Positions 9,864 to 14,543 of a stretch of 54,850 nt of DNA are shown here, piece after piece. The stretch lies in IMG/VR virus record IMGVR_UViG_3300042901_002340. One strand, 5' to 3'. The first letter of the stretch is position 1. The number at the start of each line of letters is the position of its first letter. The notes under the pieces are model-generated. The model was given only the letters and a program-made list of their open reading frames with translations, searched no databases and was not told the origin of the DNA. The stretch comes from a virus (taxonomy: Duplodnaviria > Heunggongvirae > Uroviricota > Caudoviricetes). A program made the translations under genes and the position numbers.

Positions 9864-10258
9864 TATTTTCTATATTTAATATCACCTGAACCGGTTCTAA
9901 CTGATCCAGTGATGGTTGTTGCTTTTACGTCCCCTGATCCTGTTTGCACGTCTCCAGTGATTGATTCGCATTCAATATCACCAGAACCTGTTTGTGCTCC
10001 GTTTGTGATGTTAGCACAGTTGATGTCTCCACTGCCGGTTCTTGCCTTGTTGACATTTCCACCAATCTCTATCTTATCACAATAATCCACGTCCAAGGAA
10101 TCCAAATCTCCAGAAACCGAGATTGTGACGTTCTTTGCATCCTTGTGATCTGCTGTCACATCCTTACCGTCGATAATAATCTTATTTCCGCTGATGCTAA
10201 TGCTTCTGCCGGAGTAGTTCATGTTGTTGATGTTTATCATGCCTCTTGTTTTTTCCAC
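9863..10258 (-). CDS. Beta-solenoid repeat protein (DUF4097-like TGSGD repeats)
   Basis: Four TGSGD(I/V) repeats with about 16 aa period. Confidence 0.7.
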   Translation of the reverse strand: MEKTRGMININNMNYSGRSISISGNKIIIDGKDVTADHKDAKNVTISVSGDLDSLDVDYCDKIEIGGNVNKARTGSGDINCANITNGAQTGSGDIECESITGDVQTGSGDVKATTITGSVRTGSGDIKYRK

Positions 10259-10614
10259 TTTATATTTTCGCTTATTCTCTCAGCTAGATTATCTAATTTT
10301 TCTTTGCTAGCAATAATCTCGGATTCCACTTTGCTATACTCCTTCATTTGTTTTTCCAAAATTTCGCTATACTTAAGATCAATCTGATCCTCGTCAAGAT
10401 ATTTGTCATCGGTAAGTGATATTTGGTGTGGCGTAAAATTTCCAGATTTTATTCTCGCCTTGATACGTTCTGTTATCTCATCCTCGGTTGGATCAAAAAG
10501 AATATCAGAGTGGTTCTCTACATAATCACTACTTGAGGTATAATCATCATAAATTTTATATGACCATCTCTTTTCCTCACCAGTTATCATATTTATTTCG
10601 ATGTCCATCTTCAA
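10237..10614 (-). CDS. Hypothetical protein with C-terminal coiled coil
   Basis: 125 aa ORF. Confidence 0.65.
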   Translation of the reverse strand: MKMDIEINMITGEEKRWSYKIYDDYTSSSDYVENHSDILFDPTEDEITERIKARIKSGNFTPHQISLTDDKYLDEDQIDLKYSEILEKQMKEYSKVESEIIASKEKLDNLAERISENIKWKKQEA

Positions 10615-10650
10615 TCCTCTAGCGCCACCATTTCTTCGTGTTGGTATTAT

Positions 10651-11025
10651 TCAATCTTTTGTAAACACCACCATCTCCTTACAGGTCAGAAATTGACTTC
10701 TGTCGATTATCATCCTGTTCAGGTCGTTTCTTTTTTTCTCATTTACAGTTAATTCAGTCTTTATATCGGACAGCTCTTTTCTTTTTTCTGTGATCTCCTT
10801 GTTGATATCAACTAATTTTTGTTTGCTGAATTCAACTTCTTTAGCATAAACTGGTTGAACAGATCCAAAGATTTCATTGACCACTATTTGCTTTCCAGAA
10901 AGATCCTCAAATTCTTCGCCCTCGTATCCAGTGTAGTACATATAAGATTCCACCAGGAATCTGTTATCACTTATTTTTTCAATAAGTCTTACCTTTTCAC
11001 CGCTTTTAAGATAGAAGTCCTGCAT
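10651..11025 (-). CDS. Hypothetical coiled-coil protein
   Basis: 124 aa; first gene after the 11043 promoter. Confidence 0.7.
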   Translation of the reverse strand: MQDFYLKSGEKVRLIEKISDNRFLVESYMYYTGYEGEEFEDLSGKQIVVNEIFGSVQPVYAKEVEFSKQKLVDINKEITEKRKELSDIKTELTVNEKKRNDLNRMIIDRSQFLTCKEMVVFTKD

Positions 11026-11081: not shown

Positions 11082-11567
11082 CTAATTAATTCGATATGCC
11101 ACAGGTGAAACCTCATATCTGTAGCCCCAATCCTTTTTCAATTCGACATTTTCAAACACACCATTGAATTCTATATTCTTAACCGTCCCGTTTGAATAGA
11201 CAACTTTAAGTGGACCGTTTTCCGGGATCATCTTTAAATCAAAGCACCAATTTTCACGGCTGTCTAGGATGGTTGTTAGAATGTAGATTTTAACCTTTGC
11301 TTCCGATGCTCTGTTACCATCTCTGTTAACATAACCATCATTTCCATAGTCGTCATCAATAACTAAATCCTTTACATCCTGACCCCAAATGTGATATTCA
11401 GTTTTACGATCCGGACCATATACAACCATGTGCATACCCTTACCCTTTACATGCTTTTGTCTTCCGAAAAGCCAAACACCCTCACCTATATGAACTTCTT
11501 TAAGTCCTCTGTTTAAAGCTCTATTAATATACCCTCTAAGCTGGGTTAATTTTTCAAATTTTCTCAT
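11082..11567 (-). CDS. Hypothetical protein
   Basis: 161 aa ORF. Confidence 0.7.
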   Translation of the reverse strand: MRKFEKLTQLRGYINRALNRGLKEVHIGEGVWLFGRQKHVKGKGMHMVVYGPDRKTEYHIWGQDVKDLVIDDDYGNDGYVNRDGNRASEAKVKIYILTTILDSRENWCFDLKMIPENGPLKVVYSNGTVKNIEFNGVFENVELKKDWGYRYEVSPVAYRIN

Positions 11568-11943
11568 TGTTTATAAATTTTAATCCCTCTTCCAATCCTT
11601 TTTCTAATGCTTCCTCGTAAGATTTAAAATCTATATGATTAGAATAATTTGGAAACTTCAATTGCGCAATTGGAAAGTCCCTTACCTGGATATCGTTCCA
11701 GTTTGAAATCCTAACTATCCATCTAGTTTCATCCCGATAATGAACCTCACTATCCCTGACCACCTCAACATCTATGTTGTGGATTTCTCTAAGCCATTTC
11801 TGGAGTAGCGATTGTGTTGCGGGTAATTCTTCAAATAAAGTTTTACCCGACATTGGGTTATAATAGGTTTCTTTTTTATTTGGTATGAACCCCTTCTCCT
11901 TAGCTAGATTGCCGGTTTCTAGCTTTATTTTTGTTTCTTCCAT
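11554..11943 (-). CDS. Paralog array member 7 (LAKEKGF subtype)
   Basis: LETGNLAKEKGF...TQSLLQKWLREIHNI...YEEALEKGL. Confidence 0.8.
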   Translation of the reverse strand: MEETKIKLETGNLAKEKGFIPNKKETYYNPMSGKTLFEELPATQSLLQKWLREIHNIDVEVVRDSEVHYRDETRWIVRISNWNDIQVRDFPIAQLKFPNYSNHIDFKSYEEALEKGLEEGLKFINNEKI

Positions 11944-12530
11944 TATTCAATAAATTTTCTAACAATCGGTTTATCCCTATCAGTTTCCCATATAACTTCA
12001 TAAGTACCATGGTCGGTGTGATAAGTTTCTTGATATTTTCCATCCGCAGTGTCACCATTTTGATCTGGTAAAATCGATCTCATCGATAATAGAAAGTCTT
12101 CCCTTTCCATTGGATTTACTAGTACTCTCCAGGATGATGTGTCAAGATCCTTCTTTTCATTGAATATCTGAATTATTCTTTTCAGACAAACCAAATCCTC
12201 CAGACGTTTGTCCCAATTTGGTAATCCCCTATTTGGTGTTGCCAATCCAAGATCATAAACCACTTTGAATTCCTCTTGCCTTATCTCCTTGATGGAGCTC
12301 ATATATCCTATACCGTCACCCCATAATGTTGTTTCAGCAAATAGACCATAATTATCTAGAAACCAATTAAAAGCTTGTTGGTATAGGGGTGCTAACAATA
12401 AACCTTGATGAACCGTCATTTTACCTTCATAGAAAGATCCATCCTTGGAGTACCATCCCAAGCAATCTTTTTCAAAGCCTAATTCTTTTAAACTTAATGC
12501 CTGTTCGTAAGGTATAAATTCTTTATGCAT
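11943..12530 (-). CDS. Paralog array member 6 (LKELGF subtype) with extra C-terminal domain
   Basis: MHKEFIPYEQALSLKELGF...APLYQQAFNWF. Confidence 0.8.
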   Translation of the reverse strand: MHKEFIPYEQALSLKELGFEKDCLGWYSKDGSFYEGKMTVHQGLLLAPLYQQAFNWFLDNYGLFAETTLWGDGIGYMSSIKEIRQEEFKVVYDLGLATPNRGLPNWDKRLEDLVCLKRIIQIFNEKKDLDTSSWRVLVNPMEREDFLLSMRSILPDQNGDTADGKYQETYHTDHGTYEVIWETDRDKPIVRKFIE

Positions 12531-12531
12531 C

Positions 12532-12612
12532 TTATCTAGATTTTAAATATAGCATTATAAAAGCTAATATAAATGTAAAAATAGCAGCTATTACATATTG
12601 TTTTTTATCCAT
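12532..12612 (-). CDS. 26-aa single-TM micropeptide inside the paralog array
   Basis: MDKKQYVIAAIFTFILAFIMLYLKSR; fills the only sizeable gap in the array; start overlaps the upstream gene end and the stop lies 1 nt before the next ATG. Confidence 0.55.
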   Translation of the reverse strand: MDKKQYVIAAIFTFILAFIMLYLKSR

Positions 12613-12997
12613 TATATCCTTCTTTTACAATTTCTATTAGTTTCTTTAAACATTCAAGTTCTGCTTCTTCTGTAGAATTATAGGTTCCGTCATTCCATAA
12701 AATATCTCCATTGCTAGAATTTCTGACAATTCCTTCCCAACCATACCCTTTATGTATTTGATTATAAAAATTATACTTCTCTCTAAACCATCTAAATGCT
12801 TGTTGGTAAGTTGGCGATACACATATATTTCCAACTAATTCTAAATGCTGAAGTCCTAAACTATCCATAATATCTTTAGTAATACCAAAATCTTTGATAA
12901 ACTTACCTTTAATATTAAAGAACCCAAAACAAGGTTCATCAAATCCTAATTCTTTAAGTTCAACCGCCAAGGTATAAGGTATAAATTCTTTATGCAT
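12605..12997 (-). CDS. Paralog array member 5 (LKELGF subtype)
   Basis: MHKEFIPY...LKELGFDEPC...PTYQQAFRWFREKY...EEAELECLKKLIEIVK. Confidence 0.8.
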   Translation of the reverse strand: MHKEFIPYTLAVELKELGFDEPCFGFFNIKGKFIKDFGITKDIMDSLGLQHLELVGNICVSPTYQQAFRWFREKYNFYNQIHKGYGWEGIVRNSSNGDILWNDGTYNSTEEAELECLKKLIEIVKEGYNG

Positions 12998-12998
12998 C

Positions 12999-13409
12999 TT
13001 ATTTGTTTAAAATAATAAAATTTGTTATTACTCTTAAAGTTTCTTCATCAGATTCATAGGTTGTAGATAATTCCTTATCATCCATTACAAAACCTTCATA
13101 TGTAAAATCTAAGAAAAATCTAGTCCTAAATTTTCTATCTAATTTGGAATTATTTTCAATAATACCCAGCACAAACTTAAATGCTTGTTGATATAGTGGT
13201 GCTGAAATCCATTTAGATTCTTCAGTATATTCACTATTGATAGGTATAACATTGCTCGACATTTCAACTTTGGTATGATAATCTAAATCATACTCAAAAG
13301 GTTTTTTACTACCAACAGCATGTGTTCGGTATGTTGCAAAACATTGCTCGTTAAATCCAAGTTCTTTTAAATCTAATGCTAGCTCATATGGTACAAATTC
13401 CTTATGCAT
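12999..13409 (-). CDS. Paralog array member 4 (LKELGF subtype)
   Basis: MHKEFVPYELALDLKELGFNEQC...APLYQQAF. Confidence 0.8.
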   Translation of the reverse strand: MHKEFVPYELALDLKELGFNEQCFATYRTHAVGSKKPFEYDLDYHTKVEMSSNVIPINSEYTEESKWISAPLYQQAFKFVLGIIENNSKLDRKFRTRFFLDFTYEGFVMDDKELSTTYESDEETLRVITNFIILNK

Positions 13410-13801
13410 TATTTCTTTTCTTTTACAATTTCTATTAATTTTTTAAGACATTCAAGTTCTGCTTCTTCGTAAGTTCCATATTCTTTGAAATCCATAATAG
13501 CTTTATGTGGATAGATATAATCAATCATAACCATATATACTCTATCTATATCACCATTACTAATGAGTGTAATAGTAGAATGTAGATTATACTTCTCCCT
13601 AAACCATCTAAATGCTTGTGAGAACGTTGGAGCTTTACAACTTGATGAATCATAAGGAAACAAATCAATCCATTCTGTTATTATTTCTAAATAAACACCT
13701 AATGCTGAGTTCTTACATAAATGATATCCTAAACAAGGTTCATCAAATCCTAATTCTTCTAAATCAAGGCTTGGCTGATGAGGTACAAATTCTTTATCCA
13801 T
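13409..13801 (-). CDS. Paralog array member 3 (LKELGF subtype)
   Basis: MDKEFVP...LEELGFDEPC...APTFSQAFRWFREKY...YEEAELECLKKLIEIVK. Confidence 0.8.
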   Translation of the reverse strand: MDKEFVPHQPSLDLEELGFDEPCLGYHLCKNSALGVYLEIITEWIDLFPYDSSSCKAPTFSQAFRWFREKYNLHSTITLISNGDIDRVYMVMIDYIYPHKAIMDFKEYGTYEEAELECLKKLIEIVKEKK

Positions 13802-14217
13802 TACTTCTCACATTTTACAATTTCTATTAATTTAAGTGCTTCGTGTAGACCTGCTTCTAAAACATCTTCATATTTTGTACTAGTTTTTATTCTGTGTTCG
13901 TGATAATTCATTTTACCACTTTTGTCAATATAATCAATTGTTATATCATAAAAAGGGGTTTCTTCGTTATATTGTTGATAATACGATAGGTTTAAATGAA
14001 TATTATGAACCTCTCTTAACCATTTTTGAAGAAATGCTTGATGTGGTGCATAACATTCAGGTTTGTTAATATCTTTGCAATCATTTGCTCTAATAGACAT
14101 AGGGTGGCATAATGATATACTTCCATCAAATTGATAAAAAGTATCAATACTATGAATAAGAAAACCTTTTTCTTTTGCTAGCTTTGCTGTTTCAAATGTT
14201 ATTAATTGTTCTTGCAT
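13801..14217 (-). CDS. Paralog array member 2 (LAKEKGF subtype)
   Basis: ITFETAKLAKEKGF...APHQAFLQKWLREVHNI...YEDVLEAGL. Confidence 0.8.
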   Translation of the reverse strand: MQEQLITFETAKLAKEKGFLIHSIDTFYQFDGSISLCHPMSIRANDCKDINKPECYAPHQAFLQKWLREVHNIHLNLSYYQQYNEETPFYDITIDYIDKSGKMNYHEHRIKTSTKYEDVLEAGLHEALKLIEIVKCEK

Positions 14218-14543
14218 AATTCTATTAATTTTTTAAGACATTCAAGTTCTGCTTCTTCGTATGAGTCTGCTTCATCTATATAAGATTGACTTTTTTTAGT
14301 ATCTAAAGCAATATAACCATCATTAGTTAAACTAATATTAAATCCATACTTCTCTCTAAACCAAGAAAATGCTTGTTGATAAAGTGGTGCTGTCGGCATT
14401 CCAAATCCTTGTGAATTTTTATATCCTATCTCAGAACAAACACATAACTTTTCCTTAGTATGATACGCCCTAATACAAGGTTCATCAAATCCTAATTCTT
14501 TTAAAACCAATGCTTGTTCGTAAGGTACAAATTCTTTATTCAT
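14202..14543 (-). CDS. Paralog array member 1 (LKELGF subtype)
   Basis: MNKEFVPYEQALVLKELGFDEPC...APLYQQAFSWFREKY...YEEAELECLKKLIE. Confidence 0.8.
   Translation of the reverse strand: MNKEFVPYEQALVLKELGFDEPCIRAYHTKEKLCVCSEIGYKNSQGFGMPTAPLYQQAFSWFREKYGFNISLTNDGYIALDTKKSQSYIDEADSYEEAELECLKKLIELCKNN

What the first reader, a model, noticed from the sequence alone, without database searches (positions are those of the whole stretch)
11554..14543. Tandem array of seven paralogous cassette genes with conserved ends and variable middles
Seen: seven consecutive, translationally coupled ORFs of two subtypes, MxKEF(I/V)PYxxALxLKELGFxExC (five copies) and (F/L)ETxxLAKEKGF (two copies). They share a central P-x-(Y/F/Q)-x-x-(AF/LQ)-x-W-(F/L)RE block and usually a C-terminal YEEAELECLKKLIEIVK-like block, with unrelated sequence in between. 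Conservation extends to DNA: ggtataaattctttatgcatctta precedes two starts (about 12511 and 12978), acaaggttcatcaaatcctaattctt occurs three times (about 12929, 13733, 14475), and acattcaagttctgcttcttc occurs three times (about 12649, 13448, 14239). Inference: a recombination-driven cassette library in which a fixed scaffold displays variable loops, such as an expanding family of anti-defence or host-protein binders with different specificities. I cannot assign a known function to this family.
Basis: partly seen in the sequence, partly recalled or inferred. Interest (0 to 1): 0.8.

Follow-up and report, generated by a model that had tools for sequence, protein, structure and literature searches.

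The report
Mix-and-match small phage protein family
A giant uncultured phage carries seven versions of a small, unnamed protein whose two variable halves are swapped between genes and between phages at three short conserved DNA blocks, giving a very large mix-and-match repertoire whose targets are still unknown.

Summary
Observation confirmed: seven minus-strand paralogs (five type A, two type B) in a 430-kb phage, members of an unnamed viral family of about 14,600 clusters at 50% identity, with no Pfam match. Each gene is anchor-V1-anchor-V2-anchor. The orthologous locus holds 2 to 7 copies in relatives. V1 and V2 reassort: among 105 distinct genes, 16 pairs share only V1, 28 only V2, 2 both; near-identical modules sit in loci that share no flanking gene, and all seven copies have a module found with another partner elsewhere. 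Anchors keep rare synonymous codons and breakpoints are staggered, which fits homologous recombination; no reverse transcriptase or linked recombinase was found. Models: the variable parts are beta-strands, not loops; the C-half is dsRBD/T7 gp1.2-shaped (Z 6-7, not diagnostic); a homodimer is supported. Shuffling is shown (about 0.9); a host-protein-binding or anti-defence role is only inferred (about 0.35). The scan noted this family in other phages and reported the same three-block shuffling in an unrelated family. Closest published analogue: T-even gp38 adhesin.

The parts
14202..14543 (-). g1, type A, 113 aa; V1 14391-14474, V2 14262-14345
   Evidence: its V2 occurs with other V1 segments in L086/L087, P0024, P0031
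13801..14217 (-). g2, type B, 138 aa; V1 14050-14148, V2 13873-14004
   Evidence: V1 allele (60-66%) occurs with other V2 segments in P0122, P0124, P0126, P0127
13409..13801 (-). g3, type A, 130 aa; V1 13634-13732, V2 13472-13588
   Evidence: 13 proteins share only V1, 5 share only V2
12999..13409 (-). g4, type A, 136 aa, degenerate central and C-terminal anchors; V1 13203-13340, V2 13059-13157
   Evidence: the copy in L088/L089 is 96-100% identical over the first 210 nt, then unrelated
12605..12997 (-). g5, type A, 130 aa; V1 12818-12928, V2 12674-12772
   Evidence: 5 proteins share only V1, 11 only V2; intact ortholog in L088/L089
12532..12612 (-). 26-aa hydrophobic mini-ORF filling the g5-g6 gap (passenger, not a family member)
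   Evidence: expression not shown
11943..12530 (-). g6, type A, 195 aa with C-terminal extension; V1 12393-12461, V2 12216-12347; one of two core genes of the locus
   Evidence: orthologs keep V2 and the extension but carry different V1 segments
11554..11943 (-). g7, type B, 129 aa; V1 11824-11874, V2 11620-11778; second core gene
   Evidence: V2 kept in orthologs, V1 replaced in L090, L091, L097, L100
14475..14543 (-). example N-terminal DNA anchor (also 13733-13801, 13341-13409, 12929-12997, 12462-12530)
14346..14390 (-). example central DNA anchor, the V1/V2 crossover block (also 13589-13633, 12773-12817, 12348-12392)
14214..14261 (-). example C-terminal DNA anchor (also 13424-13471, 12626-12673)

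Best explanation
The array is a local sample of a combinatorial gene pool shared by many phages. Each gene has three 45-70-nt anchors that encode the helices of a small dimeric alpha/beta protein and two exchangeable modules (V1, a beta-hairpin with a variable excursion; V2, the three-stranded sheet). SHOWN: modules reassort between genes and between loci; the array grows and shrinks by gain and loss of whole genes; anchors are conserved as DNA. INFERRED (about 0.85): ordinary homologous recombination during co-infection or between copies, using the anchors as homology, does the swapping, and repeated exchange keeps the anchors alike. INFERRED (model only): the proteins are homodimers held largely by anchor-encoded residues, with the V2 sheets joined edge to edge. 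INFERRED (about 0.35-0.4): the variable sheet surfaces bind different host proteins inside the infected cell, most plausibly defence or take-over targets, so that each V1 x V2 combination has its own specificity.
For: Copy number between the same two flanking genes: 7 (window), 4 (L083), 2 (L090/L095, L091, L094/L097, L100), at least 3 with different 5' copies in L088, which is about 94% identical in DNA to the window's upstream flank. 181 proteins give 120 V1 alleles, 122 V2 alleles and 173 combinations; 26 of 28 recurrent V1 alleles and 28 of 30 recurrent V2 alleles have two or more partners. In unclustered loci, 105 distinct genes: 16 pairs share only V1, 28 only V2, 2 both. 37 of 38 module-sharing pairs share no flanking ORF at 70% identity or more, although many modules are 95-100% identical in DNA. 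Type B behaves alike (32, 43, 7) and three A-B pairs share a V2. Same codon at the same residue in anchors 0.73-0.86 against 0.50-0.53 expected; for example GAG 87% against 27%, AAG 92% against 27%, CTT 86% against 20%. Identity tracts end at different places within the anchors. Within alleles dN/dS is 0.19 (V1) and 0.14 (V2). Homodimer model: score 0.83, best of 3 controls 0.01, runs agree in 100% of contacts, pLDDT at least 92; this mark was reached by 20 of 30 solved homodimers and 1 of 23 proteins solved as single chains. Interface includes E4, C23, Q57, R60 and R63, each 94-100% conserved. A close 434-kb relative encodes a RecA-like protein.
Against: The fold match to T7 gp1.2 is tied with dsRBDs and within the background range, with no profile similarity. 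dN/dS is biased low because pairs were picked at 60% or more protein identity. The protein set was clustered at 90%, which removes pairs sharing both modules; 9 such pairs remained against 1.1 expected, so linkage is not zero. Most sampled loci hold one copy (55 of 80). Neighbouring unrelated families show the same block-and-variable design, so shuffling may be a general property of these regions rather than an adaptation of this family. The dimer was modelled for one copy only.
Confidence: 0.6

Rival explanations
1. One conserved job, variable disguise. The function lies in the conserved scaffold (one target or ligand); V1 and V2 only have to fold, and vary because exchange is easy or to avoid being sensed by host defences. 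Arrays are a by-product of anchor-mediated gene capture.
For: Scaffold surface residues are nearly invariant. Most loci have a single copy. Unrelated passenger genes lie between copies. Neighbouring families are shuffled too. V2 can move between type A and type B scaffolds.
Against: Alleles are under purifying selection even at synonymous divergence of 0.3-0.5; scaffold conservation is partly explained by the predicted dimer interface and by DNA-level homogenisation; single genomes keep 3-13 different versions.
Confidence: 0.3
2. A small-molecule sponge: the dimer binds an immune nucleotide signal, as Acb4 or Tad proteins do, and the modules tune ligand choice.
For: Small, acidic phage oligomer; Acb4 appears among structural neighbours at Z 4.8, rmsd 2.8, 60 aligned; conserved polar residues meet at the two-fold axis.
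Against: Z 4.8 is background level; hundreds of alleles far exceed the number of known signals; no pocket could be inspected.
Confidence: 0.07
3. A nucleic-acid- or ribosome-binding regulator, as the dsRBD/HPF-like shape of the C-half might suggest.
For: Best structural neighbours include dsRBDs (Z 6.4-6.8, rmsd 2.3-2.7) and HPF/RaiA.
Against: Family is acidic (median pI 4.9, 10th-90th percentile 4.5-6.2); no Pfam dsrm match; the sheet is the most variable part.
Confidence: 0.05
4. Virion-packaged internal proteins, like the polymorphic T4 ip genes (recalled from memory), delivered with the DNA.
For: Small polymorphic proteins with a conserved N-terminus in a T4-like large phage; not exclusive of the binder reading.
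Against: The N-terminus is modelled as part of the fold and of the dimer interface, not as a cleavable leader; no proteomics.
Confidence: 0.07
5. The mosaics are assembly chimeras made at the shared anchors.
For: All type A data come from short-read metagenome assemblies; reads could not be checked.
Against: The central anchor is about 45 nt and a median 84% identical. The same combinations recur in independent assemblies (nine contigs for g1; L088 and L089; 25 identical pairs). Many mosaic partners differ by 5-25% inside the shared module.
Confidence: 0.03

Closest known systems
gp38 adhesin of T2/T6-type phages (Trojet et al. 2011, PMC3157838)
   Same: Hypervariable segments between conserved motifs; exchanges at or near the conserved motifs make chimeras; a library spread over many phage genomes.
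   Different: gp38 is a single-copy tail-tip receptor-binding protein with glycine-rich motifs; this family is multi-copy, lies among small non-structural genes, has a different fold, and is probably intracellular.
PeSL cassettes in hyperplastic regions of T4-type phages (Arbiol et al. 2010, PMC2839356)
   Same: Short repeats drive gain, loss and replacement of small genes by recombination.
   Different: PeSLs are intergenic promoter/terminator elements moving whole genes; here the repeats are coding and move half-genes.
T7 gp1.2, dGTPase inhibitor (PMC9478638; PDB 7u65)
   Same: Small phage protein with two helices on a three-stranded sheet; Z 6.6, rmsd 2.5, 61 aligned and Z 6.3, rmsd 3.2, 83 aligned.
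   Different: Tied with dsRBDs; 5-15% identity; no profile match; lacks the N-terminal V1 subdomain; gp1.2 docks with helix 1.
PHROG 12005 (type B) and PHROG 25117 (type A), unknown function
   Same: Direct matches, best E 1.2e-28 and 2e-7.
   Different: Unannotated clusters; no paper on them or on their modular design was found.
Phage_ABA_S (PF18066, PDB 1r7l) and P22 NinX (PF10765)
   Same: Similar order of helices and strands; nearest named clusters by language-model features at 0.75-0.77; weak full-length Foldseek row, E 0.28, TM 0.37.
   Different: No HMM or profile-profile match; a lead only.
HFGVEE-ending mini-protein family reported earlier in this scan (unpublished AI notes)
   Same: Three DNA-conserved blocks and two swappable halves in freshwater phages.
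   Different: Unrelated sequence, about 75 aa and helical by those notes; not tested here.

Membership tests
gp38-type modular adhesin | variable segments exchanged at conserved motifs | tested here: met
gp38-type modular adhesin | glycine-rich motifs, gene in tail-fibre locus | tested here: not met
   no glycine-rich motif; flanks are small hypothetical genes
PeSL cassettes | repeat-mediated gain and loss of small genes | tested here: met
PeSL cassettes | repeat is intergenic | tested here: not met
   all three repeats are coding
PeSL cassettes | repeat carries promoter and terminator | tested here: inconclusive
   sigma-70 and terminator counts at chance level; Bacteroidota promoters are not covered by the scan
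Diversity-generating retroelement | reverse transcriptase in the genome | tested here: not met
   0 of 5 complete carrier genomes, controls rang; the window's own genome is not held
Diversity-generating retroelement | point variation at adenines against a template repeat | tested here: not met
   segments are replaced whole and differ in length; within alleles dN/dS is 0.14-0.19
Site-specific cassette system (integron, shufflon) | fixed crossover position | tested here: inconclusive
   tract ends are staggered in 13 informative pairs, but later point changes blur breakpoints
Site-specific cassette system (integron, shufflon) | linked recombinase | tested here: not met
   apart from other modular mini-gene families, no neighbour cluster occurs in more than 10 of 111 loci
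Phage_ABA_S (PF18066) | HMM match | tested here: not met
   none of 220 members at E 0.1; no family gene hit in five carrier genomes
Phage_ABA_S (PF18066) | same fold as 1r7l | tested here: inconclusive
   Foldseek E 0.28, TM 0.37
P22 NinX (PF10765) | profile similarity | tested here: not met
   hhalign probability 0.1, like shuffled controls; 25-sequence profile
dsRBD | alpha-beta-beta-beta-alpha core | tested here: met
   C-half, Z 6.4-6.8
dsRBD | sequence signature and basic character | tested here: not met
   no Pfam hit; median pI 4.9
T7 gp1.2 | homology | tested here: inconclusive
   shape only; profile of two sequences gave no match
Anti-defence proteins in general | inhibits a host defence system | not testable with these tools
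   needs the bench

The most novel reading that the evidence does not exclude
A community-wide, antibody-like binder library in Bacteroidota phages: a dimeric scaffold on which hundreds of V1 and hundreds of V2 alleles are recombined, and perhaps paired further as heterodimers of paralogs, each combination inhibiting a different host defence protein.
Probability: 0.15. Interest if true: 0.9.

Novelty: new variant of a known kind. Interest (0 to 1): 0.62.

Why it matters
About 14,600 distinct clusters of an unannotated phage family turn out to follow one simple rule: two module pools joined at three anchors. This explains the family's size, gives a clean natural case of half-gene exchange between phages that otherwise share little, and makes function testable by domain swaps in cultured Cellulophaga phages that encode type B members. 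If the modules set target specificity, the family would be a large source of counter-defence proteins and a natural binder scaffold. If they do not, it still shows how hyperplastic regions of lake phages generate protein diversity.

Tried and rejected
No own genome and no read tools. Pfam, PADLOC and PDB sequence searches gave nothing meaningful. ABA sandwich/NinX membership was pursued from an Atlas lead and not supported; 1r7l was not among the top 50 VIA rows, which does not exclude it. The polyvalent-protein paper does not use that domain name. BFVD and Atlas structure hits were all uncharacterised viral proteins. Longer forms gave no informative fusion: 21 hits, mostly fusions to neighbouring unnamed modular families, two to MORN-type repeats. 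Local duplication followed by divergence was rejected because no two window copies share a module while each shares one with outside genes. A DGR was rejected. An imperfect palindrome in the central anchor (I3 and I13) was not pursued. Five literature searches for such a family returned nothing relevant; the library lacks most subscription papers. A-B and paralog heterodimers were not modelled (one job only).
Full report
Observation. The seven ORFs, the two subtypes and the three exact DNA repeats are present as described. The genes are on the minus strand and overlap or abut; the one 74-nt gap holds a 26-aa hydrophobic ORF. The window belongs to a 430-kb metagenomic contig; g1 is recorded on nine contigs. 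Type B has relatives in cultured Flavobacterium, Cellulophaga and crAss-like phages, so a Bacteroidota host is likely but inferred; type A hits are uncultured huge phages and one Leptolyngbya phage record.

Family. Types A and B are homologous (probability 99.3%). The family is very large: at least 7,962 clusters at 90% identity and 14,589 at 50%. It matches only PHROGs of unknown function. Of 80 viral loci, 55 have one copy, 16 two, 7 three and 2 four; complete genomes carry 3 to 13 copies, often in several places. Seven in a row is the largest array seen here.

The locus in relatives. Between the same two 161-aa flanking genes there are 2 copies in four relatives, 4 in L083 and 7 in the window. 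The last two genes (g6, g7) are the stable core; extra copies are added on the 5' side. L088, about 94% identical in DNA upstream, has different first copies, and its g4 counterpart is 96-100% identical for 210 nt and then unrelated, switching at the central anchor. Orthologs of g6 and g7 keep V2 but change V1.

Two module pools. Splitting members at the anchors gives V1 (about 25-43 aa) and V2 (28-49 aa). Identities are bimodal, about 18% or above 60%. 181 proteins contain 120 V1 alleles, 122 V2 alleles and 173 combinations; rough richness estimates are 470 and 340. That set is clustered at 90%, which hides pairs sharing both modules, so I repeated the count on unclustered loci: apart from identical copies of the same phage (25 pairs), 16 pairs share only V1, 28 only V2 and 2 both among 105 genes. 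Modules 95-100% identical in DNA occur in loci with no shared flanking gene. Type B shows the same pattern and three A-B pairs share a V2. No two window copies share a module, but every copy shares one with outside genes, so the array was assembled from the pool.

Mechanism of exchange. The anchors are conserved as DNA beyond protein need: same codon at the same residue 0.73-0.86 against about 0.51 expected, including codons that are rare in these genomes. Identity tracts end at varied positions in the anchors. There is no recurring recombinase neighbour and no reverse transcriptase in five carrier genomes; the closest complete relative has a RecA-like gene. Homologous recombination at 45-70-nt blocks is the simplest reading. 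It is inferred, not observed in reads.

Protein. Models of g1 (pLDDT 73) and g2 (pLDDT 85.5) agree: a short strand and helix, a V1 hairpin, then helix, three-stranded V2 sheet, helix. The anchors encode the helices and the central crossover lies at the subdomain boundary. The C-half resembles dsRBDs, HPF and T7 gp1.2 at Z 6-7, which the tool rates as a common arrangement. A g1 homodimer scored 0.83 against a best control of 0.01, with 100% contact agreement and pLDDT of at least 92; 20 of 30 solved homodimers and 1 of 23 single chains reach this mark. The interface uses conserved anchor residues plus strand pairing of V1 and of the first V2 strand. This supports but does not show dimerisation. 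Within alleles dN/dS is 0.14-0.19, with a selection bias towards low values. The proteins are acidic, which argues against nucleic-acid binding.

Function. I commit to intracellular binders of host proteins with specificity set by the modules (about 0.35-0.4), on the grounds of architecture, purifying selection on many unrelated alleles, and retention of several versions per genome. The main rival, one conserved job with variable disguise (0.3), is not excluded. Neighbouring unrelated families have the same block design and sometimes fuse with this one, and earlier notes of this scan describe it in another family, one of them later downgraded in part. The shuffling may therefore reflect how these phages recombine rather than a dedicated system.

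Comparison and verdict. It works like the gp38 adhesin library and uses repeats as PeSLs do, but is a member of neither. It is not a DGR, and membership of Phage_ABA_S, NinX or gp1.2 was not supported. No paper on the family was found. Novelty: new variant of a known kind. Interest 0.62; most novel case probability 0.15, interest 0.9.

Noticed in passing
window 12532-12612 (-): 26-aa hydrophobic ORF filling the gap between g5 and g6; its stop-start junction is the same 24-mer as the g4-g5 junction.
   Followed up: partly
window 10237-11025 (-): Two ORFs of about 124 aa where six relatives have one ORF of 262-264 aa; the gene looks split in this genome.
   Followed up: no
L090 5004-5393; L097 3167-3556; L100 3693-4082: A third subtype of the family (A-like N-terminus, B-like centre) about 2 kb upstream of the array in relatives, absent from the window.
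   Followed up: partly
L097 5948-6322: The g6 ortholog stops after 124 aa, at the end of V2.
   Followed up: no
L083 1672-1980; L085 5564-5992: Unrelated membrane-anchored or lipoprotein-like genes inserted within or just before the array.
   Followed up: no
many loci, e.g. L007 3466-4702, L056 2657-4728, L168 1686-5259: Two other unnamed families with conserved blocks and variable inserts (starting MKNIHxLPTDKP and MKQETLEEAA) are the commonest neighbours (34 of 111 loci) and occur as fusions with this family in either order.
   Followed up: partly
P0001, P0005, P0262-P0264: Two family units fused head to tail in one protein.
   Followed up: no
window 12783-12798 and equivalents: The central anchor contains an imperfect 16-nt palindrome (I3 and I13); may be chance.
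   Followed up: no
G001 59551-60669: A second three-copy array in the closest complete relative, about 21 kb from the first; the window's genome probably has it too.
   Followed up: no
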